The translations under genes and the position numbers were made by a program. A stretch of 63,689 bases of DNA, counting the filler, from Stramenopiles sp. TOSAG23-6 (taxonomy: Eukaryota): NCBI GenBank assembly GCA_900128565.1. It is 10 parts of 10 records of this genome, joined end to end, with 100 filler letters (N's around TTAATTAATTAA, not from the genome) between each part and the next. Parts side by side here need not be neighbours in the genome. Positions count along the whole stretch, not along the records: positions 19,197 to 25,481 come from LT636729.1; 9 more parts are not named here. One strand, given 5' to 3'. The notes beneath the pieces are model-generated. The model did no database searches. It was not told the DNA's origin and saw only the letters and a list, made by a program, of their open reading frames with translations. Shown here one piece after another: positions 2,504-50,967 of the stretch (positions are counted from its first letter, which is position 1; each line of letters opens with the position of its first letter).

Positions 2504-4061
2504 CGTACTATATTTTGTACCTAATGAATTTTTTAGTTTTTGTTGAATTTCACAATTTATTTTGGCCACTTGGCATAAAAAAGGAAAAAGCAAAAGGTAA
2601 ACTTATGATAATAGCTTCAGCTATTCTTGGTTTTACAATGGCACAAGCGTATTGTTGCTTTAAAGGTTGGTATATATGTATGTTTTATTTTTTTTTAATT
2701 TTAAATTTGAAATTGAATTTTTTTTTTCATACGAAATTTTGTACCTAACAATTTTTTTTTTTTTTTAATTGTATTTTTTTTTTTGGTTTTCATACGAAAT
2801 TTTGTACCTAACAATTTTTTTTTGAATTTTTTTTGAAATATTATTCTACAATACATACCCGATGAATCATAAAAAAGCATTTCAATTATTTCTGAGTATG
2901 TACGTTTTCAAATATATTTTCTGTATTCTTATCAAAAAAAAATATTTTCATACGAAATTTTGTACCTAACCAAAAAACAAAAAAAAATCAAAAAAAAATC
3001 AAAAAAAAACAAAAATGTATTCTTATCAAAAAAAATTTTTTTTCAAAAAATTTTTGTACCTAACCAAAAAAAATCAAAAAAAATCAAAATTTATATTTTG
3101 TACTACACAGTAAACACTATCGATATGCTCAGTGTTCCCTAGGCACGATGTATCTTTTATTTTTTTTTTTTTTCGGTAAAAAAAAAATCGAAGTTTTTTT
3201 TTCGGTAAAAAAAAATCGAAGTTTTTTTTTTCGTACGAAATTTTGTACCTAACAAATTTTACAAAAAAAAAATATTTTTCACAATACATGTACTTGGCAG
3301 GGCATGGCGTCGCTGAGAATGACACGGAAGCACTTAAATGGTATACTAAAGCAGCAAAATCAGGTCATTCCGAAGCTCAATATTTGCTAGGGGATTGTTA
3401 TTTTCATGTACGTTTTTGTATATAATTTTCATACCTAACAAAAAATTATTATTTTTTTTTTTTTTTTAACAAAATTTTTTTTATATATAATTTTCATACC
3501 AAATTAAAATCATAATTTTTTTTTTTTAACGAAATTTTTTTTATGTATCATTTTCATACGTATAACAAAAATAACAAAAATAACAAAAAATTAATTTTTC
3601 TTTTTTTACAAAAATATTACATATTGTTTTGTATTCAATGTTTATACCAAATTAAAATCATAATTTTGTAACAGTATTACTAACAAAATTGTCAATTTTT
3701 TGAAACATATTTTGTTACTAAACAGGGTATAGGTGGTTCTAAAAATTATAAAGAAGCAATAAAATGGTTAAGTATAGCTGCAGCTCAAGGCCATGTAGAA
3801 GCTCAGTATACATTAGGACAATGTTCGTTTTTCGTGTAAAAAAATATTTTTTCTTTTTTTTTTTTTTTGAAAAAAATTTCATACCTAACAAAAAAAATGA
3901 AATGTTTTGAAATACTTTTTAATGATATATGTTATTATAAAGGATCTGGGGTTGTTACTGATGATAATGAAGCCTTCAAATGGTATACTAGAGCGGCAAA
4001 TGGAGGTCATTGTACTGCACAAACTATTATAAAANGATTNGAAAAAANCACTATNACATGA
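2087..4061 (+). CDS. SEL1-like repeat protein, 7 exons; start uncertain
   Basis: SEL1 repeats (YLAGHGVAENDTEALKWYTKAAKSGHSEAQYLLG; GIGGSKNYKEAIKWLSIAAAQGHVEAQYTLG; YYKGSGVVTDDNEAFKWYTRAANGGH) join in frame after removing introns 2364-2560 (ends AT), 2678-2856 (AT), 2900-3110 (AG), 3150-3289 (AT), 3408-3725 (AG), 3823-3930 (AT). Confidence 0.8.
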
Positions 4062-12997: not shown

Positions 12998-13416
12998 CTT
13001 TGTGTTGAAAAAGATTCGAAGTGGTATTTCAGATAGAAATGAAATCTGCAATTCCGTTTGGTTTTCTACAAAAGAACATATTTTAGATTATGAGTGGTGT
13101 AATATGGCAATTCATTCTATGAGTCAATCGGGTCCAGAAATTACAAATTGGACAAAACTGGGTTGTTATAAATGTATGTTTGATTTTTTTTCAAATTTGT
13201 TTTTTTTTTCGTACGAAAGTTTGCACCTAACGAGTTTTTTTTGAAATACTTTTCCAAAACACATCTGAATCCTACGGTGCCATGGAACTCATCCAGCCTT
13301 GTCCTGAGCAAGCAGTTTGTAGTGAATTAAGAGATTTAAAGGATAATCAATTCTGTTGGACACCAGTTACCGATTTTAATGATGAAAATATGACAAAAGA
13401 ACGAATTTGGAAGGCA
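12998..13416 (+). CDS. Two exons of an uncharacterised Cys/Trp-containing protein
   Basis: Exons join in frame as GCYK-SESYGAMELIQPCP across family intron 13174-13264, which ends AT. Confidence 0.5.
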
Positions 13417-13511
13417 GTATGTTTTACTTTTTTTTATATTTCGAATTTATTTTTTTTCATACGAAATTTTGTACCTAACGATTTTTTTTGAAATATTTTT
13501 TTACAATACGG

Positions 13512-14271
13512 TTCTTCTGGGTGTGAAGTTGCTGTGGATAAATCGAACATGATTTTGCCACGATATAAAGTTTTGCGTAAGAAAACAAGAGAAGGTGCAT
13601 GGGAAGTATCTCAGCTAAATTTTCCTAAAACAGATATTTCTTTCTACAGGCACCAAATATGTATGTTTTACTTTTTTTCAAATTCGAATATTTTTTTTTA
13701 TAAAAATATTGTACCTAACAAATTTAAGTTTTTTTATTTTGAAATATTTTTCCAAAATACATTAGAGGCTGCGAGAGATGCAAAAGAAACAGTTTGTTGT
13801 TGTAGGGCAGAAAATGTACCTCCAATGGGTTCTTCGTTTACTCTTCCTGATGGAACACAAATTCAACTAACAGCTGAGGAAACAACATCAATTCCAGAAA
13901 TGTTATTCAAATCAGATATGATAGAATCATTAGGAATTTTAGAAGGATCAGTACCTTTACAACATTTACTACATAATACTGTAAGTAGTTGTGATCCAGA
14001 AATACGTAGTGAATTGTTACGTAGTATCATTATTGCTGGTGGCGGTGCTTTATTACCAAACTTACACCGTCGTGTAGCAAGTGAATTGCGTCTTTTGTTA
14101 CCATCGTCTTATAGAGTTAGTATTGTTACTCCTGGAAATTTGGGAAGAAAGTTTGCTCCATTTATAGGCGGATCCATTCTATCTTCGTTAGGTTCCTTCC
14201 ATCAGTGTTGGGTTTCTAAACAAGAGTATGATGAACATGGTGCTTCTATAGTAAATACAAAATGTCATTAA
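13512..14271 (+). CDS. ARP4: Actin-related protein 4 (ARP4/BAF53-like), C-terminal half
   Basis: ILPRYKV...FTLPDGTQI...IPEMLF...SSCDPEIRSELLRSIIIAGGGALLP...FIGGSILSSLGSFHQCWVSKQEYDEHG; intron 13661-13762 (GT...AT). Confidence 0.8.
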
Positions 14272-14353: not shown

Positions 14354-16416
14354 TCAATCTGCATCTCTCATTCCTTCAGAATCAGAATCAGAAGGTGTTT
14401 TCTCAACGTCATTAACAACAGCTGTTTCTTCAATGACGTTACCTTTATCATCATATTCTGGACAATACATTTGATTGATTCCAAGTTCTTCATTTTCCTC
14501 TTCTGTTCTTTCGTAATCTTCATTAACAATAAATTCATCTGGAATTGGATGAGTTGGGTTATATACCCAACTACCAGCGGAAGGATCCGATAAAATGACC
14601 GTGAAATCCATTTCACCATTCACTGCCTTGTTAATTTGACTAAAAAATTCTTCAAATTTTTGACGTGATTCTACCGGAGCTGAATCGCCCATGTAAAATG
14701 AAGATACTTCCTTTATTTGATCCCGTGACTGTGTTAGTAACCCTTCTACAGTTGTGTAAATTCCGCCAAGCGTACCACGATTTAACTCCAAACCAATTTC
14801 CGGTACAGCTACGTGACAGTCACAAGATTTCAAGACATCTCGTAGTAAAATATCCTTGGCATTTTCTCTTGTCACATGGATGGTTGTTCTTTTCCCCTTT
14901 TCTTTAATAGCACCACTGGTTTTTACTTCAGCATTTTTGTATCCACAATGAGGACATACAAGACACATTAACATAATATCCTGAAAATGAGGAATGTTTG
15001 TGATGGCCATTCGGTTTTCAGCTTGTCCACTGCATATGTATTATAAAAAATTATGTCAAATTAAAACTTTGTTAGATATGTTAATTAAATTTGGTACAAT
15101 TTTAACAATTCATTTCAAATCCATGATTTATGATTGAAATCCATGATGTAATGGAAAACCTACACAGGACATTTCGTGGGAAATCGAACATCAGTGTTAT
15201 TTCGAGAATCACAATCGAAATACATTCTTTCAATATCTTCCTCGGTAACTAATTTACCAATACGTTTATTTCGCTTCTCTGATAAACGATCACATAACTC
15301 CTTTTGAGCCTTTTTTAATTCATTCTCATCATCATGTGCCGCAGCTATACAACCAGTTTTTTCATCCTGTTCTTGAGAACGAGTATATGTATTGTGAAAA
15401 AATATTTCAAAAAAAAAAAAACATAAATATGTTAGGTACAAAATTTCGTATGAAAAAAAAATTAAATTAGAAATTCATATAAACATACACGCTGTAACTA
15501 CACAATTTGGGTCAGCTTCAGGTGAATTTGGATTTTCAACAGCTGCAACTCCTGAACAATCATCTAAGATAATATCAAATGGTAAATAATCTTCATGTCC
15601 AGTTGCACTAAATGCAAGTTTAGACACCATTTCATTGATTCGATTTAATTTTTCAATTTCGTCGTCTGTTGGATTGTTACCCGTTGACTGCTTCATATTT
15701 TCTGCTGCTTCACTCAAAGCAACAGTCATACTCTGTAGAACACCTTCAAGTGTTGTTAGACGACCATCTGATTTTAAACTAGCAGGTACTTGAATACCTA
15801 TGCTAGGTATTTCAATATCTGTAAATCGTGACAACACAACTTCTCTGTTTAAGTCTGACTTGGACAAAACTGTAATCACAAGTTTTACACCTTGTTCTTT
15901 GATGTCACCAGAAGGTTTTGCTTCATTGTTGCGATGACCACAAGCCCGACACTCGAAGGAAGAAATTATAATTTGCCCAAAAAATGGATATTCCCGCACT
16001 AAAAGTTTTGTCAAACCATTTTCATGACACTTTGGGCAGACACTCTCTATTTCCATTGTATCCTCAAAACCGTCACCATTTTCCTCACCATTTTTCTCCT
16101 TGTCATTTTCTTCGTCACTACTCTCCCATGCATTTTCACAAAACTCCTCTTCTTCATCGATTTTATCATCCTCAGTTATTTTTGATTCCTGAGATTCTTC
16201 AACAGGAATATCCAAATAATAACCAAGACCTTCCTCTCCAGTTCGAAACACAAAACCAGGTCTAGAACCAATAAAGGATTCGCATGGGTCAAACAACTTA
16301 TAAAGACCTTCACCTTGGGCATGACTTTTATCACGCCATAAATATCCAGGCTTTGTTGATTTGTAATCCGGGCAAGGATAAAACACGGGTTGATCATGTC
16401 CTATTGGAGCTGCCAT
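14354..16416 (-). CDS. ZPR1: Zinc finger protein ZPR1, 3 exons
   Basis: Two ZPR1 modules (ESVCPKC...SFECRACGHRNNE; FPTKCPVC...VCPHCGYKNAEVK...GGIYTTVEGLL); introns 15387-15488 and 15036-15163, both GT...AT. Confidence 0.92.
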
Positions 16417-16605
16417 GAGATAAATGTAGAAGTATTCGATGAGTAGAACAGTTAGTTGTACTGTACTTGTCAGTACCCGTAGCACAAGCACAGAAGCGTG
16501 TGCAATTATTATTTTTATTGCACTGAATTTAATTACCGGGTACCCGAATTATAATTATTGTTTTGGAGAATGTTATTCTTTTGTCAGAGACATCTTTTTG
16601 AATTG

Positions 16606-18702
16606 TCAGGTTTCGTCACAAAGAGGTGAAAATCCCAATTTTCCTGTTTTAATATCATCAATAATTTTTAAAACACCAGCAATGCTCATGAGAATAACAG
16701 CACCAATCATTACAATTACTATAGAAAAGACAATAAATGATGCATTGTTATACTTTTTGACTAAATAAATCATAATCTTCTGACCTAAAAAAGTGGCTAT
16801 TAAAGAAGATACTGAAAATGCAATAGAATGTATTTTGGAAAAATATTTCAAAAAAAATTAATTTGTTTTGTTAGGTACAAAATTTCGTACGAAAAAAAAA
16901 TCAAATTGAAAAAAAAAAAACGTACATAATCTTCGAGTAACATTCCAAGAAATATAAACTGCACTGTTGCTGAACCAGATGTTATCATCACAGTTGTTGC
17001 ACTGGTTGCTTGAGTATGTATTTTGGAAAAATATTTCAAAAAAAATTAATTTGTTTTGTTAGGTACGGAATTTCCTATAAAAAAAAAATTCGATTTTTTG
17101 TAAAAAAAAAAATAAAACATACACAATTCGGAGACATTCCTAACTCAAGTAATAAAGGTCCCATTATCATACCTCCCCCGATTCCTAAAAAACCTCCCAG
17201 TATTCCTGCTATAGCAGATAAAAATGGATATAAAAACATATTTTTACCCTTCCAATGTATTTTGGGAAAATATTAATTTTTTTGAAATATTATTGTTAGG
17301 TATGAAATTTCGTACCAAAAAAAAAAAAAAAATGAATAGAAAAAACAAACATGTATATCACCCTCAGCAAATACATATGCAACTCTCGTCTTTTCTATAT
17401 GGAGCTTCTTTAAATCAAAACCTACGACACTAGCGACTAGCAACATCGAAACTATGAGTTGTGAAAAAATATTTCAAAAAAAATGTTTTTTTTTTTAGGT
17501 ACGAAATTTCGTACGAAAAAATAAATTCGAAATTGAAAAGAATAAAAAACATACATTAAAGCTCCAGATAAAATCCAAAACTGTACACTACAATTTTCTA
17601 CTCCGATAATACTAGCTGACCCAGCTTTCCCTCCACGCAACAAAGACAAAATTACTATAATAATAAACACTATAAATACTTTGAGTAAAGGTATTTTCTG
17701 ATCTTTTTCACTGTTTCTAATTTTGTTTCTCGATACTTTTTTCTCAAAATGTTCTGGTGAATCTGATTCTATTTTGTTTGTCTTGGAAAGTTTTTTCTCA
17801 AAATGTTCAGGTGAATCTGATTCTATTTTGTTTGTCTTGGAAAGTTTACCATTTTTTTTACTTTCTAACATTACAATTGTTGGTTTTGAATCTTCAGAGC
17901 TAACGTTACAACAATTTTCAATCGGTACTTCAGTCTGATTTTTAACATTATTATAATTTACATGATTATCAACATGTAAATCTTTTTCATGCTCAGTACA
18001 AGTAGGTAAATATTTTTTTGAATTGTGCCATGTTTTTATACCTTTCAATAAAGTACGAAAAGCACCATATCCAATACATATAATTAAGCAAGTCACAATT
18101 GTCCAATCTGGCATTACTTTATTCATCATTACACCAATTACTGTACCAGCAAGCATTAAAGGTTCCAGCATCAGTACACAGTCATAATCTATCAGAGGTC
18201 GATGATGTTGTGTAGGATGGTGAGAATTATAATTTATACATAGATTCACTAAACTTCCACCAAATATCATAGCTTGTGAAATTGGTACAGCTTCCTTTGG
18301 GGAAAACCCAATCACCAGTATTAGCACTGGTACAAATATACCACCACCACCTAAGCCACCACCGGCTGCTAGTGCAGCTGCAAAAAATAGAACTACCATT
18401 CCAACTATTAAATAAGCATTTATGTTGTCAAGCAATCTTCCTCTTGTACAAAGACCTTTTCTTGTTTTGTCTGACCCTGAAACAATTGAAGAAGCTTTCG
18501 CCTCTTTGCAGACGAAACCTTTGCCACATTCGGTTGGCGACCCAACAATACAATTAGTGCACTTACTCTGAAAACAAACTTGACCCTTGTCATGTGGTTG
18601 GCACTTGTTATGAATATCGCTTGGTGAAAGACTATCATCACACTCTGCTGCAGTTCTTATTAGCAGTATAGAAGCAATGATTAGAGCTGTAGGACGATAC
18701 AT
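16606..18702 (-). CDS. TauE/SafE sulfite-exporter family membrane protein, 5 exons
   Basis: AAGGGLGGGGIFVPVL, RPLIDYDCVLMLEPLMLAGTVIGV, GGFLGIGGGMIMGPLLLELG; introns 17454-17554, 17255-17350, 17016-17122, 16828-16925, all GT...AT and all frame-restoring. Confidence 0.9.
17016..17122 (-). mobile_element. Representative introner-like element (about 50 related copies across the window)
   Basis: GTATGTTTT...T-run...GAAATTCCGTACCTAAC...GAAATATTTTTCCAAAATAC-AT; the same three blocks recur in unrelated genes, essentially always in the sense orientation of the host gene. Confidence 0.8.
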
Positions 18703-19035: not shown

Positions 19036-19094
<59 letters not shown>

Positions 19095-19243
19095 TTNNNN
19101 NNNNNNNNNNNNNNNNNNNNNNNNNNNNNNNNNNNNNNNNTTAATTAATTAANNNNNNNNNNNNNNNNNNNNNNNNNNNNNNNNNNNNNNNNNNNNAAAA
19201 AAAAAAAAAAAAAAATAGGGAAAAAATTTCCTATGAAAAAAAT

Positions 19244-19289
<46 letters not shown>

Positions 19290-21655
19290 ACAATTTTATG
19301 AAATTGGTGAAATAATGAAAATGTACAAATGTGCTTAAAAATGAATCACATAAATCTAATGTTGTAGAGGATGATGAACACAATGATGTTAATAATTCAA
19401 TGATTGTGCCAACAGTGCTACTTGGCCATTTATATGACAAGTCAATTGGATTATGAATGTGTTCCTATATTTGTAGAAAATATTTCAAAATTTAAAAAAA
19501 TATTTTGTTAGGTACAAAATTTACTACGAAAAAAAAAATGAAAAAAAAATGAAAAAAAAATTCCAAAATTTTTTTTAAACAAAAGATAAAAAAAGATAAA
19601 AAAAATATTCTTATTACAACACGTACCAACATTTTTGGTGTCATATGCCGGGGACACAAAACTGTTTTCATAATTGAATATAAAATGTTTTGAACTCTTT
19701 CATCACTTTTTTCAATTTTTTCACTTTTTTCAATTTTTTCAATTTTTTCAATTTTTTCTTGATGTTGTCGACAAAATCGAACATGAATTATTTTTTCACG
19801 CCCATTACCGGGTATCAGCTGGTCAGGCACATTTTCTATAGTAAAACCTAGTAAAGATGCAATTTCTCTACTTATAGTAGGGTCATACGGTAATGTTTCA
19901 ATAAGCATGTATTTTGGAAAAATATTTCAAAAAAAATCTAAAAAATTTCGTTAGGTACAAAATTTCGTACGAAAAAAAAAATTCGATTTTTTTGTAAAAA
20001 AAATAAAAAAATAAAAAAATAAAACATACATACTATCAAGACAATCAGCAACAGATAAAATTTGTTCGGTAAAAATAAAAGGTTGAAATTGTTTTTTTTT
20101 TTTTTTTGAAATTTTTTTTTCTTCTTCTTTTGAAATTTTCGTTTTTTTTGGACTTTCTTGATTAGGATTAGGGTTAGGGTTTTTTAATGCAGGTATGCAT
20201 TTCATTACTAAATTCCACATCCCTACATAATCAATGACATTACTTGTATCAATAGCATGATATCCATTACTTCCAGGTTGTTTTAAAGGAATTTCCATAC
20301 AATGGTAAAAAAATATTTGAAAAAAAAATTCAGAATTTTTGTTAGGTACGAAATTTTTTTACGAGATTTTTTTTACGAAAAAAAAAAAAAAAAAAAAAAT
20401 GTAGGATAAAAAAATACATGCAATTACCAAATGTAAAAAAACAGCGTATTGTATTGTTTTTGACAGATTTTTGTAGACGAATAAATAATGGTGTCCAAAC
20501 ATTTTGAAGCGTTTTCGCAAATGAAGGTGAACCCACCATATTATCGATTGCATTGCTTGTATTGGTTGTAGTAGAGTTAGGGTTAGGGTTAGGGTTAGGG
20601 TCGTCGAAAATTTCGTCACTAGTTAGTGATGCAAAAGCGCCAACAGGCCCTTGACATTCTAAATATATGGCATGCTGTTTGATCCCATCGATATCATCAT
20701 TCGATATTTCAAAATTTTCAAAATTACATGTAGAAAGTATTGTGAAAAAATATTTCAAAATTTACTATAAAAAAAAAATTTGTTAGGTATGAAATTTTTT
20801 TACGAAATTTTTTTACGAAAAAAAAAAATTTAAATTTGAAATTTAAATTTGAAATTCATATAAAACGTACAACATCAAATAGAGTTGGGTTTATATACGT
20901 CACTGTAGTGTTTGTGAGGGAAGAGTCAACGGAGGAAACCCCATGTTTAAGCCAATCTACAAGAAGATGTGATAAACGTCCATGACCTGCACTTTGGTCT
21001 GAGAGTCTTTTTGCACGTACATAAATTATGAAAAAATATTTCGAAAAAAAAAATCTAAAAAAAATTGTTAGGTACAAAATTTCGTACGAAAAAAAAAATC
21101 AAAAAAAAAAAATTCAAAATTGAAATGAAAACGAACTTGTAATAATTTTTTTGTGTTTGTTTGTACAGATTTCAAAGATAAAATCGTACGCCATGCAATC
21201 CAATGTTGTTTCATAGCACTTAATGTCTTTTTATCTGTTCGAATCCATGAAGGGATTTGTTCAATTAATTGACACAAGGTTTTAAAAAGTTGAGAAAAAG
21301 TTTCTTCATTGAGCAAGACATCACTCCAAATAGCTGTTGCATATTGTATACTCAACTCTCCTTCAGATGCCAAGGTGATCAGTACCACATTTCGTGCAAG
21401 GGCAATCGAATTTAAGTCATTGAAATGTAGTTCAACTCGTGCTTCTGATGGAATATTTATCAAAGTGGTGAGAGGGTTTCGTATATCACCAACTCCAATC
21501 CAAAGCAATTTGATGGGTGTTGCGTTACATAAACTTTGTACTTCTTCTTTTGTTAGCAAGCTGCGAGCAAATGTATTTCCAATAAGAAAGCCACTCATCA
21601 CACTATCGACAAGCTTACGTCGTGCAAGACTAAATGGTTTAGAGTACACCATCAC
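19290..21655 (-). CDS. DUF4470-domain protein, at least 6 exons, 3' end truncated
   Basis: LLWIGVGDIRNPLTTL...LHFNDLNSIALARNVVLI DUF4470 signature; family introns end AT, TT (20735-20870), AT, AT, AG. Confidence 0.7.
20577..20600 (+). repeat. Interstitial telomere-type (TTAGGG)4 inside an exon; one of about 12 such tracts
   Basis: TTAGGGTTAGGGTTAGGGTTAGGG, read as DPNPNPNPN on the minus-strand gene. Confidence 0.85.
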
Positions 21656-22925: not shown

Positions 22926-25382
22926 TTACTCTTCAAAAGTTGTACATTGACTAAATTGACTGATAAAAGAAATATGACTTAAATCACTCAAATGATCATT
23001 ATGCAGTTGCTCATTTCTATCAATAAAACATGAAGTAATAAAATCTCTAATAATTTTGATACTCTTTAAAAGTTCAAATAATTCAGTGATTTCATTAGGG
23101 TTAGGGTTATTAGGGTTAGGGCTATTATTTCCATTATTTTCAATGCATTTTGAAGAATTCGTATTTAATTTCGTACCAATTTGTTGAAGAATTTCACCCC
23201 ATAATTGTAGAACATACGAAATCTCAACTGAATGATCAAAAATTTCATCATTTGTTGTTGTACACGAATTATTTTGTGTTTTTTGTGTTTTTTTTGTTTT
23301 TTTTGTTTTTTGTGTATTTCGTGTTTTTTGTGTCTTTTGTTGTTTTTTGAATTGATTCAATGCAGAGTTTGATGTTTTTTTAGAATCATTGGAATTATAC
23401 TTCTTTTTATTAGGAGTTTTTATACGAATAGGAAGAGATTTTATATCCAAATTATTCTTTTGAAATATTGTACCATTAGGGTTAGGGTTAGGGTGTAATG
23501 AGTGATTTTCATTTTTTTCTAATGTTTGCCATTCCTTCTTAAAAACATCAGGATCTTGTTTTTGAAGTGAAATAATATCATCCTCAACTTGTCTATATTC
23601 TTTAATCAATCCATTGGATATTGAATTCCAATGAGATTGCATTTGACTCATTTGAAGTGAACGATGACGAAATAATCTACTTTCATGTATTTGGGAAAAA
23701 TATTTCAAAAAAAATTTTGAAAATTTGTTAGGTACAAAATTACGTACGAAAAAAAAATTCGATTTTTTTGTTAAAAAAAAAAATAAAACATACAGCAAGA
23801 ATTTGTGAAATGATAATATTTCGTGCAACTTGCAAAGAATATTGACTTGACTCAGTTCCATCTTTACTTTTCATACTAGTGTTTTGATATGATATTGAAT
23901 TGTTAGGGTTGGGGTTAGGGCTATAATTTTTTTTTTTTCCATCATTTTTTGTATCATTTTTTAAATCATTTTTTGTATTATTTTTTGTATCATTTTTCAA
24001 ATCATTTTTTAAATCATTTTTTAAATCTTTTGTTAATTCAGAAAATGAAAACTTGACATGAGGGAAACGACCTATATTTTGGAAAAATATTTCAAAAAAA
24101 AATCTAAAAAAAATTGTTAGGTACAAAATTGAAAAATATTTCAAAAAAAAATCTAAAAAAAATTGTTAGGTACAAAATTTACTATAAAAACCAAAAACCA
24201 AAAACCAAAAAAAAAAAAATCGAATTTGAAAAAAAATTGAAAAAAAATAAAACAAACTTGTGAATTTTTTTTCCAAGACTATAGAGGACAAATAAGAAAA
24301 AAGCATATACATTTTTTTTTCAATATCTATTTTTTGTTTTAATCCATTTTTCAAGAATACCAAATGCTTTGGGAGTATACCATCAGCTACTAATGTTTTT
24401 AAAGATTTTTGAGCGACGCGGTTGAAACTGCTAATTTGGAATTTATCTGTACATGTATTGTGAAAAATATTTTTTTTTTAATAAAATTTGTTAGGTACGA
24501 AATTTCGTACGAAAAAAAAAATAAATTCGAAATTGAAAAAAAATTGAAAATAAACGTACATGATCTTTCATCAATATTATTCTCCTCCAAAATATTATCC
24601 ATCCAATGTGCAAGTTTAGTTAATTTTGCCTCTTTTAATTTTTGACTTTGGTCTCGTTTTTTCATTTCTAATTTTTTTCGGATTCTGGGGAGTGAGACTT
24701 TCCTATATACAATGAGAAATTTTTCTGTCAGACTGTTTTCATTTTCTAGAGATATTTCGTGTTGTTGTTCGAATACTTCATTTTGTTTTTGATGACTATT
24801 TTGTGTACTACGTCTGGTGTTCAATTCTGATTTAACCAGACTATACGGTTTGAAAATTTTTCGAATTTTTTTTTGGTATTTTTTTTTGTTAGGTACAAAA
24901 TTTCGTATGAAAAAAAAAATTTCAAAAAATTTCAAAAAATTTCAAAAAAAAAAAAACGTACATTTCAATTGTATCATAAAATTCATTCCAACGACAAAAC
25001 CCTTCATTAAATGAATCACAAATTTTGACTAATTCTTTTTTTTGTGAATTTGGTAATTGAATATTAATCATTCTACAAATTTTATCAATGGCAACACGAA
25101 ATACTTTATTTGTCATACACTTTTTTGGAATTGATTTTGCTAAATCCATGTATTTTGGAAAAATATTTCAAAAATTTTCTAAAAAAAAAAATTTGTTAGG
25201 TACAAAATTTCGTACGAAAAAAAAAATTCATACAAAAAAATATCAAGAATTCGTGATAGATTATTTTTACATTGAAACTCAACAACAAGACCAGTGACAA
25301 ATATCCGTAAGGCTGTATCAAGAGGTAATTCATCACTAAGACTTCCTTGCATTGATTCACATGTGGATAGGATTGTACTAAC
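22926..25382 (-). CDS. Uncharacterised low-complexity multi-exon protein, 5' end truncated
   Basis: Exons join in frame across family introns with acceptors near 25148, 24841, 24453, 24082 and 23685. Confidence 0.5.
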
Positions 25383-25588: not shown

Positions 25589-28823
<3,235 letters not shown>

Positions 28824-30036: not shown

Positions 30037-30336
30037 TGTATATACTTGTTTTTTTGTACGGAATTTCGTACGTAACGATGTTTTTGACTCAAAACAAAAA
30101 CTTACGGTAAAGTGTATGTCATTTTCAAGAATAAATTAACTAAAATGAAAACCACAAAAGTTTAATTGAAAATATTTTTGTTCCACATAAATTTATAAAT
30201 TAATACTTTTCAAGAATTGAAATGACTGAAATGAGTTAATTTTGAACTTTTTTATATCCTACCAGTTGTCGCCTACTGTACATAAAAAAAGTATGAAAAT
30301 CTCAAATTTATTATTTAATATTACATATCATCGAGT

Positions 30337-32012: not shown

Positions 32013-34727
32013 TTGGCCAGAAAGAAAATTTGTGTAATGATAAAACAAATGCGGAAGCGTCAGGAAATTCTGGAACAATAGTGACTACTGTACGTCGTGG
32101 AAGTGGAACCTTTGGTGATGATAATAGTAGTGATGATTCACAAAATAGCGATGACTATTCTTTGCAGTTGAAGCGTGGTACATCTGCTGGTTTTGGTAAA
32201 GGTGTCCGTTTTGAAGAAAATGAAGAATGTGATACAATGGCGAATACAGTTCAAGAGAATCATGTGAAACCAAGAAATAATAATTGGCATTTTAGAGGTT
32301 TTGGTAGAGATGACCAATCTAGTGTGTCCGATTTTAGAAACGGGAGCAGTGGAGGAGGATCTCATAGCGATGTAGGCGGTGCACGCAGTCGCTTTGGTGC
32401 AAACAGTACTGAGAGTGGATACGAATGTGTCGATGTACGTTTTCATAGATGAATTTCAAATTTTGTTTTTTTGGTAGAAAATTTTATACCTAACAATTTT
32501 TTTTTTTTTTTTTGAAATATTTTTCCACAATATATGATCAGAGTGAATCAATGAGTGATGATTCAGGCAATGGTGAACCTCAAGTAGTGTCTGTTTTTGT
32601 ACCTGAAGATTGGCTTGAAGGACAACATATCCTAGTGACCATGACGGATGGTCATAGATATACTCTCGCTGTTCCTCCAGGAATGTACGTTTTACTTTTT
32701 TTTTAATTCCAATTTTTTTTTTTTAGTTTTCGTACGAAATTTTGTACCTAACAATTTTTAGTTTTTTTTTTCAAATATTTTTCCAAAACACATTGGTCCA
32801 GGAGAATCATTTCAAACAGAACTTCATAGTCACATGCCTGAACCTGAGGTTGTTTCTGTTCCTGTACCTTTAGACTGGCAAAAAGGGCAACATATACTAA
32901 TTAGCATGACTGATGGTCGGAGATATACCCTTGCCGTACCCCCTGGCATGTACGTTTTCATTATGAATTTCAAATTTATTTTTTTTTTAATACGAAATTT
33001 TGTACCTAACATTTTTTTTTTTTTTTTGAGTTTTTATTTCGATACGTTTTCATTATGAATTTCAAATGTATATTTTTTTTCCATAAAAAAATTTCACATC
33101 TAACCAATTTAAAAAAAAACAATTTTTTTCACAAAACATTGGTCCTGGTGAAGTATTTCAAGCTCATTTACGGCCAAATAAAAATGGTGAATATGAAGAA
33201 GATAATAGAAGTAGTCAGGAAAATAACGAGGAAGGTACAGATAATCCTAACCCTAACCCTAAAGATACGAATGAAAATCGTGCAGATAAATCTATTCAAG
33301 ATATTGATGATATTGAAATAGACGGTAAACGAGATGATAGCCATATTGATGATAAAGATAATCATTTGGGGGAGGTAAAACAACAAGGAAATTCGGAAGT
33401 GCTTTCAAAGACACCATCCTGTACATTTTCATTTTGATTTCCAAATTGTTTTTACTAAGAAAATGGAAAATTTTGTACCTAACAAATTTTTTAAATCAAA
33501 AAATATATATAAATCCATTCCAGCATCCATTGCTGTAGTGTTGCTCATTTGGAAACCATTGTTTGTCGTTTTGTTTCCGGGTTATGTTTACACTGGTGAC
33601 CTCACAAAGGTGTTTCTCTTCCAAGGTTGTATTGGAGGCTCCACACAGACAGTGTTCGTTTTTTGCCTGCTGGAAGTGTTAATCTCTTGTGTTTTGCTCA
33701 AAGACATTGTTGTTCCTTCTGTATTTGGTGCTTTGTGGGGGAAATTTACTCATCTAAAACGAAGAAAATTAGTAGGCTTCTGTGTGAAAATTATTGTCAG
33801 AGCTTCATGTTTCGTGCAAATCGCATTTTTAGTAGCTCCTCAAGTCGACTTGGAACGTGGATTATTCGGTAAATTTAATATAAAAAAATCCAACATGGTC
33901 CTTTTAAACAAACACACTGCAATGACATGTGAAGAAGCTGGCATGTCACTCACAGATGCAGTTGCTATGCGGGCTTGGATTTTTGCCCGTGACAATATTA
34001 TGGCCGTCATGATTTGGGAATTGGCGAGTATTCCAGAACTACCTCTAGATGCTTGGTTACATCATTTATTTGTCATTCTAGGAGTTTGTTTGGGCACAGA
34101 TCCTCAAGTTATGGCTTCACAAGAAAAGGTACAACCATTTATTGATAATGTTTCATTTTTCTTAATTTTAGGTGGTTCAGGTTCGTTTTCATCATGAATT
34201 TTTTTACCTATTTTTTTTTTCATACGAAATTTTGTACCTAACGATATTTTTTTTTTTTAATTTTTCACAATACAGTTGCCGGATTAGTAGAAAGTTGTGT
34301 TTTAGGCTACCATTTAAATAGTAGCAAACCTGATCGCCAGGCTATTTGGATTCAAAGAAGTATTGCCATTCAATCAATTATGGTGTCTATTTTATTTGTT
34401 ATCCTCCCTTCTTTTGTAATCATGAAAAGTTGGCAACATTTTGGGGCACTTGCATGTACGTTTTATTTTTTTCAATTTCGAATTTATTTTTTTTTCGTAC
34501 GAAATTTCGTACCTAACAAATTGTACAAATTTTTTTTTTTTCACAATACATACGGTTACATGGCCTTAATTCTTATTTTAGTGGCTGTAGAAATTAGAAT
34601 GATTATAGTGAAATTTTCAATTGTGAAACATGCAAAAAAAAAAGCTGCAAATTTACTTCAAAGTGATTCAGAGACGAATCAGACAGATATGAGTGAAATG
34701 TCAAATGTACAAAAGAAATTTGAATGA
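32013..34727 (+). CDS. Multi-exon membrane protein with two VSVxVPxDWxxGQHILxxMTDGxRYTLAVPPGIGPGExFQ repeats; 5' end truncated
   Basis: Frame restored across six family introns (five end AT; 34181-34275 ends AG); several hydrophobic segments and an LHHL motif. Confidence 0.6.
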
Positions 34728-34878
34728 TAAAATTATTAGGCATCAAATTTAGTTTGACAAGAATTATGTTATCACTAATAAGGAGAGAGCTATAATTTAT
34801 AAATATTTCTGGTACACTAGTAGTAGTAAATGCTTGATACACTACATGTTTTACTACATGTTATTTTTTAATATCTTT

Positions 34879-35493
34879 TTAGCATATTTTATGAAGTAAA
34901 AGCCCATCTTTTCCATCATATATACTAAATTTTCTAAAAGATGTTGGATCTTGCCAGACTACACTATCACTAACACTATAAAACTTACCCGACTCAAATT
35001 CTAATGCAGCTTTCCAACAAATTGGCCAGCATATAGGGACACAACAGCAGCACAAAGCAGGGAACAAACAGAGATGATCGTGGCCACTCCTCCATAAATT
35101 GCCACAGAAGCAGCAGGGACATCCCTCGGATCCATACCATACACAACATCCATGATGGGCCTGAGACATCCTCCCTTGCATTGGTGATATTCTTCTATGC
35201 GGTGGAATTCGATTATCCATTCTTAACATTTGGGTTTGTTGATGATGCATCTCAACTGAATGTCCATAGTTTCCTGGCATAGAATATCCGGGATATTGCG
35301 TCTGCATCTGCACACGTGCTTGTTGACCACGATATTGCGCTTGAATTTGAGCCGCAGCATGGTGTTGTTGCTGTGTATATACTTGATTTTGATTATACAA
35401 CGCTGGATTATTTGGAACTATTTGTGGATTATATTGAGCAACTTGTGGATTATGTTGTGGAGCAGATGGTACAACTCGTGACTGCATCATCAT
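34879..35493 (-). CDS. Q/P-rich protein with an IQ-like motif and a Cys-rich region
   Basis: AAAQIQAQYRGQQAR IQ motif; CPCCFC and LCCCCVPICWPIC. Confidence 0.55.
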   Translation of the reverse strand: MMMQSRVVPSAPQHNPQVAQYNPQIVPNNPALYNQNQVYTQQQHHAAAQIQAQYRGQQARVQMQTQYPGYSMPGNYGHSVEMHHQQTQMLRMDNRIPPHRRISPMQGRMSQAHHGCCVWYGSEGCPCCFCGNLWRSGHDHLCLFPALCCCCVPICWPICWKAALEFESGKFYSVSDSVVWQDPTSFRKFSIYDGKDGLLLHKIC

Positions 35494-35654
35494 CTTCTCT
35501 GCTCTTTTATTGAAAATATACGATAATAGTATCTTTTTTATATCTTTCTTTGTTTTCTTCAAATTTTTACGTTGATTTTTCAGATGATTATTTTTTCACT
35601 CATCATACTTTTTTAGTGCTTTAGTACTTTACGCTAAAAAAGTATTTCAATTAT

Positions 35655-37254
35655 ATGATTCTAGGATCTGGTTCGATTGACCGTTTTGCGGCATCTGCCC
35701 CATGGGCAGTATTTCCACGCAAGCGACTTGAAATTAGTTATAGTGATTATGCTCATGGCTTATATCAATGTGTATCATCAAAGGAAGAAGATCGTGCGGA
35801 AGTCTCGACTAAAATTGAGCGCTATTGGTCCCCGCATGGAAATGGTTTTGTTTGCTTATCAGTACGCACAGGATTTGATTTATACTTACAGGCACTAAAT
35901 CTTCCTCATGGATCTGAAGTGTTGATGAGTGCGGTAACAATCAAAGATATGGTTCGAATTGTTGAGCATCATGGACTTATCCCTATTGCAATCGATATGG
36001 ATGAAGATGTACTAGTTCCTAGTACTGAATCTATTTTATCCGCGTTGACTCCACGTACTAAGCTTCTTGTATTTGCCCACTTATTTGGTACTATTGTAGA
36101 TCTTACTGATATTGCATTACTTTGTCAAAATAATGGGATATTATTTATGGAAGATTGCGCTGAAGCATATGCTGGACCTTCCTATAGAGGCCATCCAAAT
36201 GCCAGTGTGACCTCCTTTTCATTTGGAACTATCAAAACTTCAACAGCTTTAGGTGGTTGTTTAATGACAATTAAGGATCCATTTATTCTTGAGAATATGC
36301 AAAAACTTCATTCTGCTTATTCTCCTAGACCTAGAAGTGTATTTACAAAAAGAATAGTAAAGTGTAGGTTTACTTTTTGAATCTCACAAGTATTTACATT
36401 TCATTGACAATTTTGAACCTAACCATTGTAATTTTTCTTCACATTTTCACAACACATATGGGTTATATAACTTCGTATCTTCCCCCGCATTGTTTGGTTT
36501 AGCAGTGGCTGCAATGGATGCTGTAGGATTAGATTATGATACTGTTATTACTAATAATTCTCGAGGCTTCCCTGCCGAAGGTGATGCCTTTTATGACCTC
36601 ATTCGATTTCAACCATCAATCCCTTTACTCCATTTGATGTGGCGACGTCTTCATACGTTTGATGAAAAATTTCTAGAAAGTAGAAAAGAACGAGGTAAGG
36701 TAGTGGCAGAATATCTCCAAACCCTTCAAGGTGTTACAGTACCTGGTTCAGCCGTGAAGACTCATTATTATTGGCTTTTTCCAGTTGTACTTCATGACGA
36801 TATAGATTTAAAAATGGTGTGTTCAAAAATGTTAGAAAAAGGGTTTGATGTCACACCAGGGGCAACCCAACTTGGATGTGTTACAAGCTATGTGTCTAGA
36901 AAAGTTTTAGATAACCAAATGTTTCAAGATAATTTCCCATATAAAATGTCCAAAATGATGCCTCGAGTAATTTATTTACCGGTCCAACCTCTTATGTACG
37001 TTTTCACAATTAATTTCAAATTTATTTTTTTTCGTACGAAATTTTGTACCTAACGATTTTTTTACAAAAAATATTTTTCACAATACATGCCAAAATGGTC
37101 TTTGCGGTTACTTCTTCATTCTTTTACTACTGCAGTTGTTCAAGCAAGCCGAGACCGAAGTGCTCAAGATTCTAAAAAAATAGATCCTACTGGATACGTG
37201 AAGTCTTTCATTCATGAAGATGATGAATGGGTAGGGCCAAAGTCCAGGTTGTGA
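35655..37254 (+). CDS. DegT/DnrJ/EryC1/StrS-family PLP aminotransferase, 3 exons, C-terminal SRL
   Basis: LLVFAHLFG, FMEDCAEA, FSFGTIKTSTALGG; introns 36364-36457 and 36996-37088 (GT...AT); spliced product ends GPKSRL-stop. Confidence 0.85.
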
Positions 37255-37426
37255 AGCCTTTATTAAAAAAAATAGTAATAAAAAAAACGTTGTACCTAGC
37301 TAAAAAAACATTTTTTTTTCGTACTGCACATAGCATTGTACATAACATTGTGTACAATTAAAAAAAAAAAGTAGAAAAATATATATTAAATACATTTTAT
37401 TTTGGGCATTCAAATCAAGATTTAAA

Positions 37427-38162
37427 TCAAGATTTTCGACTTGTCCCACGTTTCGGTCTTTTACTTGCACGAGTGGCAACCTTTGTCTTTGACGCACGAA
37501 GTCTCTTTGATGTCCGCGCAGTGGGCTCTTTTTCAGTCAATTTTGGGGTCGGTGCAACAGAGCGATTCCGGCCCGAAATACGGCGTTTTTTCACTGGAGC
37601 ATTTGAAGTAGATTCAACTGTATTCGAAACAATGTCTACTTTTCCTTCACGTTTTTTTACAGTAGTAGATGTAGTTTTATTTTTCACTTTTAAATTTGTT
37701 TGGGTTTTCGATTTAGGTTTTGGTTTTGGTTTTGCCTTTGTTTTCGTCTTTTGTTTTGTTTTTTCTTTTGGTTTTGACTTTTGCGAATTTTTAGATTTTG
37801 TACTTTTTCCTTTTATTGAATCAGAACCCTTATTGGAACCTGGATGCCAATTACCTCCACGTCGTGCTGCCTTTGGCATTGGCGCAGTAATATTATATCG
37901 ATTTCTAATAGATTCGAGATCAAATGTACCTTTGATGTATGCTAATCGTAAAGTATGTAATTTATCATAATGTTCATCAGTTAATGCATCAGCATCTTCT
38001 TGTTCCTCATGACTAGAACTGTCAGATAATTCATTAGTATCTATTCTACGGTCCATACCCTGACACGCACGAAGAAAAGAACCTCTACCAGCATCACGCC
38101 AACCTTCTTTATCAGTACCTTCGACTGGGAACAGTTCAAGATCACGCTTTGTAGCAGCAGAG
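37427..38162 (-). CDS. Last exon of a Lys/Arg-rich, probably nuclear protein
   Basis: Open frame after family acceptor CTACAATACAT at about 38163; basic C-terminus. Confidence 0.5.
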
Positions 38163-49881: not shown

Positions 49882-50317
49882 AAAGGGAAAGAGTTAAAAA
49901 TTGAAAATAGTATATATTTTTTAAATGTAGACTAGCTTAGAAGAGAAATAAAAACTCAAAAAACAAAATGTTTTTTTTTCTTAGGTACAACATTTCGTAT
50001 GAAAACCAAAAAACCAAAAAGAAGAGAAACTACAGTCCTTTTTGTATAGTAAATTTGTATAAAAATATTTTTTTCTAATTGATTTTTGTATGGTACATTT
50101 GTATAGAAATATATTTTCTACGGTATACCTTGAAATAGTCTTGTATCAGGCAAAAACAAAATATAAGACTCTTCATAAATAAGAAATCAAAAGAGGCAAA
50201 GATTTTTTTTTAAATAGTTTTTCTATTTGTTTTATTGTTGAATAATAATATTTTCATTCTTTTTGACATTGGTCGTAGCGGAGCAAATAAAAAAAATGAC
50301 ACCATCGGACGATAATT

Positions 50318-50967
<650 letters not shown>

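What the first reader, a model, noticed from the sequence alone, without database searches (positions are those of the whole stretch)
20735..20870. The introns look like a transposon-derived introner family: short terminal inverted repeats plus a 2-bp target-site duplication that becomes the splice acceptor
Seen: elements in unrelated genes share one ~95-135 nt architecture. The ends GTAY(GTTTT)...(AAA)ATAC are reverse-complementary. The two bases after ATAC often equal the two exon bases before GT: AT/AT in many copies, TT/TT at 20735-20870, AC/AC at 43772-43867, AG/AG at 34181-34275. Mismatches also occur (GT/AT, CT/AT, AA/AT, TG/AG), so the match is partial. Established: introners in Micromonas and Aureococcus are non-autonomous DNA transposons that take one splice site from the target-site duplication. 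Inference: here the element plus one duplicated copy is spliced out whatever the dinucleotide, so insertion is scarless without needing an AG target, with a preference for AT sites.
Basis: partly seen in the sequence, partly recalled or inferred. Interest (0 to 1): 0.88.

Follow-up and report, generated by a model that had tools for sequence, protein, structure and literature searches.

The report
Mobile introns that end in AT
The genes of this uncultured marine protist are peppered with copies of one ~100-base intron that looks like a mobile element and is cut out at a GT...AT boundary instead of the near-universal GT...AG, which standard gene annotation gets wrong.

Summary
The 64-kb window carries 46 complete copies, plus about a dozen cut by gaps, of one 89-211-nt AT-rich intron family, all in sense orientation. 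Each has a GTAYGT 5' site, a 24-nt core ending in the branch motif TACCTAAC, and a 3' block ...CAMAATAC followed by two bases. Those two are AT in 36 of 45, AG in 7, and TT and AC once each.

Removing GT...ATAC+2 keeps the reading frame in 33 of 37 regular copies. Two junctions match solved homologues residue for residue, and environmental RNA contigs show two spliced junctions. One of these is a GT/AT mismatch case, which puts the cuts before GT and after AT. A public CDS of the ZPR1 gene forces GT-AG and loses a conserved cysteine.

The flanking-dinucleotide match exceeds shuffled pairings (28 of 45 against 22.7±1.5, P≈0.001). That excess rests on three non-AT cases, TT/TT, AC/AC and AG/AG, none of whose cuts has RNA proof. 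The inverted repeat is only 3-4 nt, and predicted RNA end-pairing is no better than a control. No transposase lies in the window.

Verdict: a real introner-like family with a non-AG acceptor. A transposon origin with a 2-bp target-site duplication is plausible but unproven.

The parts
20735..20870 (-). The flagged intron (136 nt): GTACGTTTT 5' site at 20870, TACCTAAC branch motif at 20789-20782, CACAATAC at 20744-20737, then TT (20736-20735); exon before it ends TT
   Evidence: Removing it keeps a 130-codon frame open downstream, against 25 and 3 codons for the other registers. The exact 3' cut is not proven: an in-frame ...AAT 12 nt downstream cannot be excluded.
15036..15163 (-). Best-proven GT...AT intron (128 nt; exon GT / intron end AT), in the second zinc ribbon of ZPR1
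   Evidence: RNA contig X7 record 18 places letters 1-111 on 15274-15164 and letters 113-220 on 15034-14927 with no other letters. Exon ends ...KCP+[GT|A]+CSGQAENRM align to mouse ZPR1 ...CPECNAPAQTNM. Public CDS P0001 uses an AG 6 nt downstream and loses Cys-Ser.
15387..15488 (-). ZPR1 intron, GT/AT pair
   Evidence: (74 codons in frame). P0001 instead skips 15498-15310.
13174..13264 (+). Intron, AT/AT, in an actin-family gene
   Evidence: RNA contig X6 record 10 joins 13171 to 13263, a skip of 91 nt, with 0 other letters. Frame supported.
13417..13509 (+). Odd member: exon CA, bases after ATAC are GG; the frame requires the cut right after ATAC (or 3 nt later)
   Evidence: 253 codons at offset 0, 4 at offset 2. 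An RNA contig of X7 starts fitting at 13510, but its upstream 79 letters lie nowhere in the window.
13661..13762 (+). Intron, AT/AT
25962..26055 (-). Intron, AT/AT, in an ethanolamine-phosphate phospho-lyase-like aminotransferase gene
   Evidence: Flanking exons align to residues ..318 and 320.. of chain 6tor_A, with the split codon as residue 319, so there is no gap. An in-frame YAG 27 nt upstream is not used.
43772..43867 (-). Intron with AC/AC pair
   Evidence: An in-frame AG 3 nt downstream of the assumed cut cannot be excluded.
34181..34275 (+). Intron with AG/AG pair (ordinary GT-AG ends)
33421..33523 (+). Family member using a canonical ...CCAG acceptor
   Evidence: the frame fits only offset -5, which equals offset 1 modulo 3. 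Also.
2678..3930 (+). Cluster of four delimited introns: 2678-2856 AT/AT with doubled core, 2900-3110 AT/AG, 3150-3289 AT/AT, 3823-3930 AT/AT. Further partial copies at 1757-1849 and 2369-2556.
16828..17554 (-). Four introns in a TauE-family gene: 17554-17454 AT/AT, 17350-17255 AT/AT, 17122-17016 GT/AT, 16925-16828 AT/AT
   Evidence: The frame test is ambiguous for 16925.
19465..21136 (-). The flagged gene's other introns: 21136-21021 AA/AT, 20417-20297 AT/AT, 20029-19907 AT/AT, 19626-19465 TG/AG
23685..24961 (-). Four introns: 24961-24841 AT/AG, 24559-24453 AT/AT, 24257-24072 AA/AG with an internal tandem duplication, 23793-23685 CT/AT. Partial copies at 25145-25229 and 25381-25454.
27662..28117 (-). 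Introns 28117-28017 (AT/AT; Ns nearby, frame untestable) and 27761-27662 (TT/AT)
32435..33139 (+). Introns 32435-32535 AT/AT, 32685-32793 AT/AT, and 32950-33139 AT/AT ('double' element)
34456..41009 (+). Introns 34456-34551 AT/AT, 36364-36457 GT/AT, 36996-37088 AT/AT, 39589-39686 TT/AT, 40895-41009 AT/AT
43076..44333 (-). Introns 43174-43076 AT/AT, 44101-44010 AT/AT, 44333-44226 TT/AT (43867-43772 is listed above)
50666..50766 (-). Intron, AT/AT
57621..58999 (+). Introns 57621-57723 AT/AG, 57901-58000 AT/AT, 58471-58572 AT/AT, 58905-58999 GT/AT
59983..62407 (-). Introns 60081-59983 GT/AT and 62407-62319 AT/AT
49944..50035 (-). Variant copy outside a reading frame, about 280 nt past the stop of the minus-strand gene and in sense to it. 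It has the core but ends ...GAGTTTTTATTTC instead of the ATAC block. The same right half occurs inside the double introns at 12812-12998 and 32950-33139.
30045..30094 (+). Core-only fragment just past the stop codon of the LRR gene, in sense orientation

Best explanation
This is a very abundant family of about 100-nt mobile introns ('introners') in an uncultured marine protist. A source name on the public CDS suggests a MAST-3 stramenopile.

Each copy carries its own splicing signals: a yeast-like 5' site GTAYGT(TTT); a 24-nt core TTCGTACGAAATTTYGTACCTAAC, whose end is a standard CTAAC-type branch site; a T-rich tract; and a 3' block ...CAMAATAC.

The major spliceosome cuts before the G of GT and, typically 35-50 nt past the branch site, two bases after the ATAC block. 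The intron therefore ends in AT (80%) or AG (16%). The acceptor rule looks like YAT≥YAG in a fixed context rather than 'first AG'.

Shown:
- family membership;
- precise removal of the element plus 2 nt;
- the GT...AT register at one intron.

Inferred, about 45% likely: the family spread as a non-autonomous DNA element that duplicates 2 bp of its target, with a preferred site (C)AT|G. Splicing out the element plus the downstream duplicate would then be scarless. The intronic duplicate has since been driven towards AT/AG by selection for splicing, while the exonic duplicate is held by coding constraint.
For: Family. There are 73 profile hits and 49 matches to a 17-nt core, against 0 expected by chance. 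Similarity runs along the whole length: median pairwise identity 72%, maximum 93%.

Orientation. Every substantial copy is in sense to its flanking ORFs.

Precise removal:
- Offset +2 is the best of three registers in 33 of 37 copies, 2 of them marginally.
- 7 of 7 irregular copies are in frame at the predicted ends.
- The ZPR1 CxxC motif is restored only by the GT...AT cut.
- The aminotransferase exons abut at residues 318/319/320 of chain 6tor_A.
- RNA contigs join 13171|13263 and 15164|15034-5. The second keeps the exonic GT, so the cuts are |GT and AT|.

AG is not the rule. 9 introns have an unused YAG between the branch site and the used end, 4 of them in frame.

Abundance. In seawater metagenome run X3, bins holding well-conserved copies reach summed depths of 1,245-39,848, against mostly 2-6 (up to 15) in the other bins. 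The tool warns that this is not a copy number.

Duplication. 28 of 45 pairs are identical against 22.7±1.5, P=0.001. 3 of 9 non-AT ends match, P=0.0003. 16 of 17 mismatches differ at one base only. Exon -3 is C in 12 of 37 and exon +1 is G in 18 of 37, giving a near-palindromic (C)AT|G site.

Phases. Intron phases are about even, 12/14/11, counted.
Against: - The excess of matches rests on three introns (TT/TT, AC/AC, AG/AG). Their cuts have no RNA or homology support, and AG/AG is also what an ordinary exon-AG|GT...AG intron looks like.
- 14 of 17 non-AT exon dinucleotides face AT or AG, which needs many parallel substitutions.
- The inverted repeat is 3-4 nt, and predicted end pairing is no better than the control.
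- No antisense or clearly untranscribed copy occurs in the window.
- No transposase domain was found in 40 ORF translations scanned.
- Linkage between a 5' and a 3' diagnostic base is weak ([[10,10],[2,12]], P=0.066).
- The GT...AT register, as against AT...AC, is shown by RNA at one intron only, and that contig has one unplaced letter at the junction.
- Intron 13417 breaks the +2 rule.
- No presence/absence comparison could be made.
Confidence: 0.5

Rival explanations
1. Same introner family and same GT...AT splicing, but no target-site duplication. The element includes its own terminal AT and spreads by an RNA route (reverse splicing into transcripts, reverse transcription, recombination) or by blunt insertion, preferring sites after ...AT or ...T. 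The three matching non-AT cases are later mutations or chance.
For: - All copies are in sense orientation, including two in likely 3' UTRs.
- Element ends coincide exactly with the splice sites.
- 36 of 45 acceptors are AT whatever the exon has, and TT, AC and AG are each one substitution from AT.
- The inverted repeat is minimal.
- No transposase was found in the window.
Against: Three of nine non-AT ends coincide with rare exon dinucleotides (exon TT 4, AC 1 and AG 1 of 45), which has P=0.0003 under random pairing. No reverse transcriptase was seen in the window either.
Confidence: 0.33
2. The true register is shifted by two. The introns would be AT...AC (NN+GTAYG...ATAC), a terminal pair compatible with known A-first/C-last splicing chemistry, and the 'GT' would be internal.
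For: In the 28 of 45 introns with identical flanks the two registers give the same mRNA. Intron 13417 seems to be cut right after ATAC.
Against: At the GT/AT intron 15163-15036 the RNA contig fits the exon through 15164, keeping GT with no other letters, and resumes at 15034. Under the shifted register it would stop at 15166 and resume at 15037. The first six intron bases are a standard U1/U6-type GTAYGT: GTACGT 18 and GTATGT 14 of 45.
Confidence: 0.05
3. These are old introns that converged on unusually long splice signals. They are not a mobile family.
For: The conserved blocks include the 5' site, the branch site and the 3' end. Intron-poor lineages are known to have long consensus signals (recalled, not tested here).
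Against: - Conservation extends to about 16 nt upstream of the branch motif and to spacer segments.
- Composite 'double' copies and a variant right half recur at three loci.
- Density reaches 4-7 introns in 1.3-2.2 kb next to exons of 2 kb or more that have none.
- Phases are even.
- Metagenome depth over the copies is very high.
Confidence: 0.04
4. The elements are removed from DNA, like ciliate internal eliminated sequences bounded by a 2-bp direct repeat, rather than from RNA.
For: Short AT-rich elements bounded by a repeated dinucleotide, with one copy kept, formally resemble such sequences (recalled).
Against: The 5' splice site and branch site are canonical. RNA runs hold both spliced and unspliced forms (X8 record 27 runs from an exon into both neighbouring introns). 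No listed DNA contig of X3 joins across an intron, although most rows were not shown.
Confidence: 0.02

Closest known systems
Introners of Micromonas and Aureococcus and the wider introner survey (PMC9860276, passages read; Huff et al. 2016 and Worden et al. 2009 recalled, not read here)
   Same: Hundreds to thousands of sequence-similar short introns in unrelated genes and in sense orientation. They are non-autonomous, and in some families one splice site comes from the target-site duplication, so insertion is scarless.
   Different: The reported duplications are 3-9 bp and supply a canonical GY or AG. Here the putative duplication is 2 bp, mostly AT, and the acceptor is not AG. Inverted repeats are nearly absent. 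The survey papers I read rely on annotated introns and treat AG/AC as the accepted 3' ends, so a GT...AT family in an unannotated or mis-annotated assembly would be missed.
Amoebophrya introner elements among non-canonical introns (PMC7789003, passages read)
   Same: Repeated introns with direct repeats across the exon/intron borders, non-GT-AG ends and a MITE-like interpretation, in a marine protist.
   Different: Amoebophrya: 8-20-nt inverted repeats forming hairpins, 3-5-nt direct repeats, no dominant terminal dinucleotides, and U1 not found. Here: a canonical 5' site and branch site, one dominant acceptor (AT), and no end pairing above the control.
Fritillaria borealis non-canonical introns (review PMC11282704, passages read; preprint 10.1101/2025.08.15.670264, abstract read; Henriet et al. 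2019 not read)
   Same: Introns thought to derive from MITEs, removed by a U2-type spliceosome, with 3' ends AC or AT rather than AG.
   Different: The Fritillaria 5' end is AG (AG-AC, AG-AT); here it is GT within a full GTAYGT site. Fritillaria is an animal with duplicated U2AF subunits; nothing is known of this protist's splicing factors.
Nonconventional introns of euglenids and of hemistasiid/eupelagonemid diplonemids (PMC6221363 and PMC12621601, passages read)
   Same: Abundant non-GT-AG introns suspected to come from MITE-like elements.
   Different: Those lack a U1-complementary 5' site and depend on strong pairing of the intron ends. Neither is true here.
U12-type (minor spliceosome) introns
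   Same: Terminal dinucleotides other than GT-AG are tolerated, and the branch motif is long and highly conserved (recalled).
   Different: The 5' site here is GTAYGT, not the U12-type consensus. The branch-to-acceptor distance is a median 38 nt, against the short spacing typical of U12 introns (recalled).

Membership tests
Introner (mobile, intron-generating element family) | Many sequence-similar introns in unrelated genes, similar beyond the splice signals | tested here: met
   73 profile hits; 49 core matches against 0 expected; median pairwise identity 72% over the full length. Host genes include ZPR1, an actin-family gene, a TauE-family gene and two aminotransferases.
Introner (mobile, intron-generating element family) | Copies are precisely spliced from mRNA | tested here: met
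   2 RNA junctions; 2 junctions checked against solved homologues; frame kept in 33 of 37 plus 7 of 7 copies.
Introner (mobile, intron-generating element family) | Target-site duplication: a locus-specific match of the flanks | tested here: inconclusive
   28 of 45 against 22.7±1.5 (P=0.001), but driven by 3 informative loci; 17 mismatches.
Introner (mobile, intron-generating element family) | Terminal inverted repeats (6 nt or more in the survey's criterion) | tested here: not met
   Only GTA(T)/(A)TAC, 3-4 nt. In one subfamily up to about 10 of 12 with a 2-nt gap if the flanking AT is counted, read from the rows. No RNA pairing above the control. The survey notes that many accepted introner families lack TIRs.
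Introner (mobile, intron-generating element family) | Recent mobility: presence/absence between relatives, or lineage-specific positions | not testable with these tools
   No genome is held for the window. The metagenome scan found 0 matches to a 22-mer, and later retries did not complete. Metagenome contigs break at the copies.
Non-autonomous DNA transposon (MITE) | A cognate autonomous element with a transposase and the same ends | tested here: inconclusive
   No transposase domain in 40 ORF translations of the window. The rest of the genome could not be searched.
Non-autonomous DNA transposon (MITE) | Copies in both orientations and outside transcribed regions | tested here: not met
   No antisense copy beyond partial hits to the palindromic core. 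The two copies outside ORFs lie just downstream of stop codons, in sense orientation. The window has little intergenic DNA, so the test is weak.
U12-type intron | U12-type 5' splice-site consensus and a branch site close to the 3' end | tested here: not met
   First six bases: GTACGT 18, GTATGT 14, others 13 of 45. Branch-to-end distance 16-50 nt, median 38. The consensus and spacing of U12 introns are recalled.
Euglenozoan/Amoebophrya-type nonconventional intron | No canonical 5' site; extended pairing of the intron ends | tested here: not met
   definitions taken.

The most novel reading that the evidence does not exclude
This lineage's major spliceosome has moved its acceptor preference from YAG to YAT. 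It tolerates other ends when they sit two bases after a conserved ...AATAC block. It did so in step with a 2-bp-duplicating DNA element that can therefore create scarless introns at almost any site. That would be a natural system in which the 3' splice site is set by position within a mobile element rather than by AG, at roughly one intron per kilobase.
Probability: 0.3. Interest if true: 0.9.

Novelty: new variant of a known kind. Interest (0 to 1): 0.8.

Why it matters
Three reasons.

1. Splicing. A GT...AT acceptor used by most introns of a genome, together with a normal 5' site and branch site, would be an unusual and clean natural experiment on how the second catalytic step picks its site. 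AG is passed over in 9 of 45 introns.

2. Intron origins. It adds a stramenopile-type heterotroph with an extreme, apparently recent intron invasion. It also offers a candidate case in which a 2-bp duplication, rather than a duplicated AG or GT, makes insertion scarless.

3. Annotation. The public CDS of ZPR1 from this assembly forces GT-AG ends, drops 29 residues around one intron and removes a zinc-binding cysteine at the other. If that is typical, predicted proteomes of this lineage used in phylogenomics and marine gene catalogues are damaged at about one site per kilobase. Introner surveys that start from annotation would miss the family as well.

The two MAST single-cell genomics papers I could check say nothing about intron type.

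Tried and rejected
- Whole genome: none held.
- Rfam and tRNA scans of the window: nothing.
- JGI metagenome contigs: 0 matches to a 22-nt core. Four retries with a 19-mer did not complete, so no extra copies or orthologous loci were obtained.
- Read laying could be used once, on 12804-19096 only. The flagged intron, the AC/AC intron and the AG/AG intron therefore have no RNA evidence. Most joint rows were not shown.
- Homologues of the flagged gene's exon 20420-20734: none at 'near' or 'longer' lengths, so its junction could not be checked by homology.
- Protein atlas on the kinase/DUF4116 ORF, tried for a lineage hint: only generic kinase clusters.
- RNA end pairing: not above the control. 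The hairpin-intron idea was rejected.
- Subfamily linkage between a 5' and a 3' base: odds ratio 6, P=0.066, suggestive only.
- Exon-length periodicity as a nucleosome-linker signature: best R=0.35 at 125-130 nt with n=29, not significant after scanning periods.
- Literature search for the motifs themselves: only unrelated primer hits.
- 'GT-AT' with marine single-cell terms: no paper held the term 'GT-AT'.
- Diplonemid origin, considered because of the reported non-canonical introns: not supported, given frequent strand switching of genes, canonical 5' sites and the source name on P0001.
- Gawryluk et al. 2016 is not held.
Introner family tables in the supplements of PMC9860276 and PMC12130899 might list a related family, and I could not see them.
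Full report
**What the window is**

The window is a gene-dense, AT-rich eukaryotic scaffold, 22-37% G+C in 2-kb windows. It contains N runs and 12-nt linkers. No tRNA or Rfam family lies in it. Genes recognisable by Pfam or by solved homologues include:
- ZPR1 (14354-16548, minus strand);
- an actin-family gene (about 12.9-14.3 kb, plus strand);
- a TauE-family gene;
- an ethanolamine-phosphate phospho-lyase-like aminotransferase (E=2.4e-98 to chain 6tor_A);
- a DegT-type aminotransferase;
- ribosomal protein S13/S18;
- a Rab, an Arf-like GTPase, an LRR protein and a WD40 protein;
- a kinase with DUF4116.

A public CDS of the ZPR1 gene (P0001) carries a source name that suggests a MAST-3 stramenopile. 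I take that as a label only.

**The observation**

An nhmmer profile iterated from one copy finds 73 hits. A 17-nt core pattern with up to one mismatch occurs 49 times, against none in 100 shuffles.

The consensus, read on the sense strand, is: AT | GTAYGTTTT - T-rich segment, often with ...CAATTTCGAA... - TTTTTTTTCGTACGAAATTTYGTACCTAAC - A/T-rich spacer, often ending ...GAAATATTTTT - C(C/A)(A/C)AATAC - AT | G.

I could delimit 46 complete copies of 89-211 nt, 39 of them 89-128 nt. About a dozen more are cut by assembly gaps. Median pairwise identity is 72% and the maximum is 93%. The longer copies have internal duplications of the core, or are 'double' elements.

**They are introns, removed exactly as element plus two bases**

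- Frame. For 37 regular copies I asked which offset after the ATAC block keeps the upstream reading frame open. Offset +2 wins in 33 of 37, two of them marginally. The four exceptions are 13417 (offset 0), 33421 (a canonical ...CCAG five bases upstream), 16925 (two upstream frames of similar length) and 28117 (Ns nearby).
- Irregular copies. Seven irregular copies are all in frame at their predicted ends.
- Homology, ZPR1. The exon before 15163 ends ...F-P-T-K-C-P, the split codon is GT|A, and the next exon starts C-S-G-Q-A-E-N-R-M. Mouse ZPR1 (2qkd) reads ...N-C-P-E-C-N-A-P-A-Q-T-N-M at the aligned place, so the zinc-ribbon CxxC is rebuilt exactly.
- Homology, aminotransferase. The exon before 26055 ends at residue 318 of chain 6tor_A. 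The next exon aligns from residue 322 at its third residue, so it begins at residue 320, and the split codon fills residue 319.
- RNA. In polyA seawater metatranscriptomes, one contig joins 13171 to 13263, a 91-nt skip with no other letters. Another fits 15274-15164 and then 15034-14927.

**Which register**

Where the flanks are identical, GT...NN and NN...AC give the same mRNA. Intron 15163-15036 has exon GT and intron end AT, so it can tell the two apart.
- The RNA contig fits the exon up to 15164, including GT, with no other letters, and resumes at 15034.
- One record letter at the junction is unplaced, which amounts to 128 nt removed.
- My reading, which is inference, is a base difference at 15035, the third position of a valine codon.

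This fits cuts at |GT and AT|, not the shifted register. It is one intron and one contig.

**The acceptor**

Among 45 introns the last two bases are AT in 36, AG in 7, TT in 1 and AC in 1. Including 13417, the last three bases are CAT 30, CAG 4, TAT 4, TAG 3, and TAC, CTT, AAT and CAC once each.
- Nine introns carry an unused YAG 27-34 nt upstream of the used end, four of them in frame.
- 34 of 45 carry unused YATs.
- So neither 'first AG' nor 'first AT' is the rule. The context ...AATAC-NN matters.
- The branch-like motif TACCTAAC is present in 34 of 45, a median 38 nt from the end.
- The 5' sites are GTACGT in 18 and GTATGT in 14 of 45.

Together these point to the major spliceosome with an altered or relaxed 3' rule. 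How the site is read is unknown.

**The public annotation**

P0001 maps to 16416-15499, 15309-15163 and 15028-14357. The model uses GT-AG ends. It skips 29 residues around intron 15488-15387, and it uses an AG 6 nt past the real end of intron 15163-15036. The product reads ...KCPVGQAENRM and lacks the cysteine. The RNA contig and the mouse homologue both disagree with that model.

**The flank match**

- In 45 introns, 28 pairs are identical, against 22.7±1.5 under random re-pairing (P=0.0011).
- Of nine non-AT ends, three match (TT/TT, AC/AC, AG/AG; P=0.0003).
- In the 37 regular copies alone: 26 against 21.6±1.1, P=0.0007.
- Sixteen of 17 mismatches differ at one base.
- Exon -3 is C in 12 and exon +1 is G in 18 of 37, so the uninterrupted site approximates (C)AT|G.

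The asymmetry is strong. Of 17 exon dinucleotides that are not AT, 11 face AT, 3 face AG and 3 face their own copy.

Two readings fit.
- (a) A 2-bp duplication at insertion, after which the intronic copy is pulled to AT/AG by selection for splicing.
- (b) The terminal AT belongs to the element, and the three matches are accidents. The permutation test makes this unlikely, but only three events carry it.

None of the three matching introns has RNA or homology support for its cut. An in-frame AG lies 3 nt beyond the AC/AC end, and an in-frame ...AAT lies 12 nt beyond the TT/TT end (read).

**The inverted repeat**

GTAT and ATAC are complementary. In GTAC copies only three bases are, and the 3' ATAC does not co-vary with the 5' Y. 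Counting the flanking AT, one subfamily reaches about 10 of 12 with a 2-nt gap, in low-complexity sequence. Predicted pairing of the two ends averages 1.2 bp, against 1.8 bp when the 3' end is reversed. This sets the family apart from the hairpin-type introns of Amoebophrya, euglenids and hemistasiids.

**Evidence for copying**

- Similarity extends well outside the splice signals.
- A variant right half (...CCTAAG, A run, T run, GAGTTTTTATT) recurs at three places. Two are inside 'double' introns and one is about 280 nt past a stop codon.
- Copies cluster, 4-7 within 1.3-2.2 kb, next to exons of 2 kb or more that have none.
- Phases are even, 12/14/11.
- In seawater metagenome run X3, bins holding well-conserved copies have summed depths of 1,245-39,848, against mostly 2-6 elsewhere. 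In the RNA runs the contrast is several-fold smaller. The tool warns that these sums include other organisms and are not copy numbers.
- Linkage between a 5' and a 3' diagnostic base is only suggestive (P=0.066).

**Evidence that leaves the mechanism open**

- All substantial copies are in sense orientation. The only opposite-strand hits are partial matches to the palindromic core GTACGAAATTTCGTAC.
- The two copies outside ORFs sit just past stop codons, also in sense orientation.
- No transposase or reverse transcriptase domain was found in the 40 ORF translations scanned.
- Presence/absence could not be tested.

**Comparison with what is known**

- Introners whose duplication supplies a splice site are established, with duplications of 3-9 bp and canonical GY/AG (PMC9860276, passages).
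- Non-canonical, transposon-like introns are known in Amoebophrya (PMC7789003), in Fritillaria as AG-AC/AG-AT (PMC11282704; preprint abstract), and in euglenids and some diplonemids.

None of these combines a canonical 5' site and branch site with a dominant AT acceptor.

My searches for 'GT-AT' with marine single-cell terms, for the motifs themselves, for non-canonical splicing in single amplified genomes and for MAST-3 with introns found no description of this family. The two MAST genomics papers I opened mention introns only in their methods. Supplements were closed, and Huff 2016, Henriet 2019 and Gawryluk 2016 were not readable here, so 'undescribed' is provisional.

**Verdict**

- This is a real, striking intron family. 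I put introner nature and removal of the element plus 2 nt at about 0.9.
- GT...AT as the general register: about 0.8.
- A DNA transposon with a 2-bp target-site duplication: about 0.45.
- Spread without a duplication: about 0.33.

Noticed in passing
window 6308-12800: A perfect (100%) inverted duplication in three blocks around about 9.58 kb that even mirrors the N/linker blocks. Two identical HIRAN-domain ORFs (6986-8311 plus strand, 10854-12215 minus strand) result. It looks like an assembly, scaffolding or whole-genome-amplification chimera rather than biology.
   Followed up: partly
window 14357-16416 (ZPR1) and protein P0001: The public CDS of this gene forces GT-AG introns. It omits 29 residues around intron 15488-15387 and deletes Cys-Ser of the second zinc ribbon. 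Other gene models of this assembly may be damaged in the same way.
   Followed up: yes
window 13510: An RNA contig of run X7 starts fitting exactly at the first base after the ATAC block of intron 13417-13509, but its preceding 79 letters match nothing in the window. It could be an alternative or misplaced upstream exon, a paralogue, or a chimeric contig.
   Followed up: partly
window 46782-47038 and 51956-51980: Long ORFs on the same strand overlap in different frames at A-runs, with no intron copy there. These are probably homopolymer length errors in the assembly.
   Followed up: partly
window 20578-20608 and 58480-58500: Telomere-like CCCTAA repeats occur inside a coding exon, read there as Pro-Asn repeats on the minus strand, and inside intron 58471-58572.
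   Followed up: no
window 22142-22642, 49195-49881, 4298-6352, 54442-56649: The ribosomal protein S13/S18 gene, the Rab gene and several exons of 2 kb or more carry no copy, while other genes have 4-7 copies within 1.3-2.2 kb. Exon lengths between neighbouring copies bunch at 142-156 nt (6 cases) and 267-281 nt (5 cases), but a periodicity scan was not significant.
   Followed up: partly
core of every copy, e.g. window 43812-43833 (minus strand): The most conserved block is not a terminal repeat. It is a central near-palindrome, GTACGAAATTT(Y)GTAC, directly abutting the branch motif. Its role is unknown; candidates are an RNA hairpin presenting the branch site, a protein-binding site or a remnant of the element's origin.
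   Followed up: no
window 44702-44756: A copy whose 5' half is lost in an assembly gap ends ATAC+TG. This is another non-AT end that could test the duplication idea once the gap is filled.
   Followed up: no
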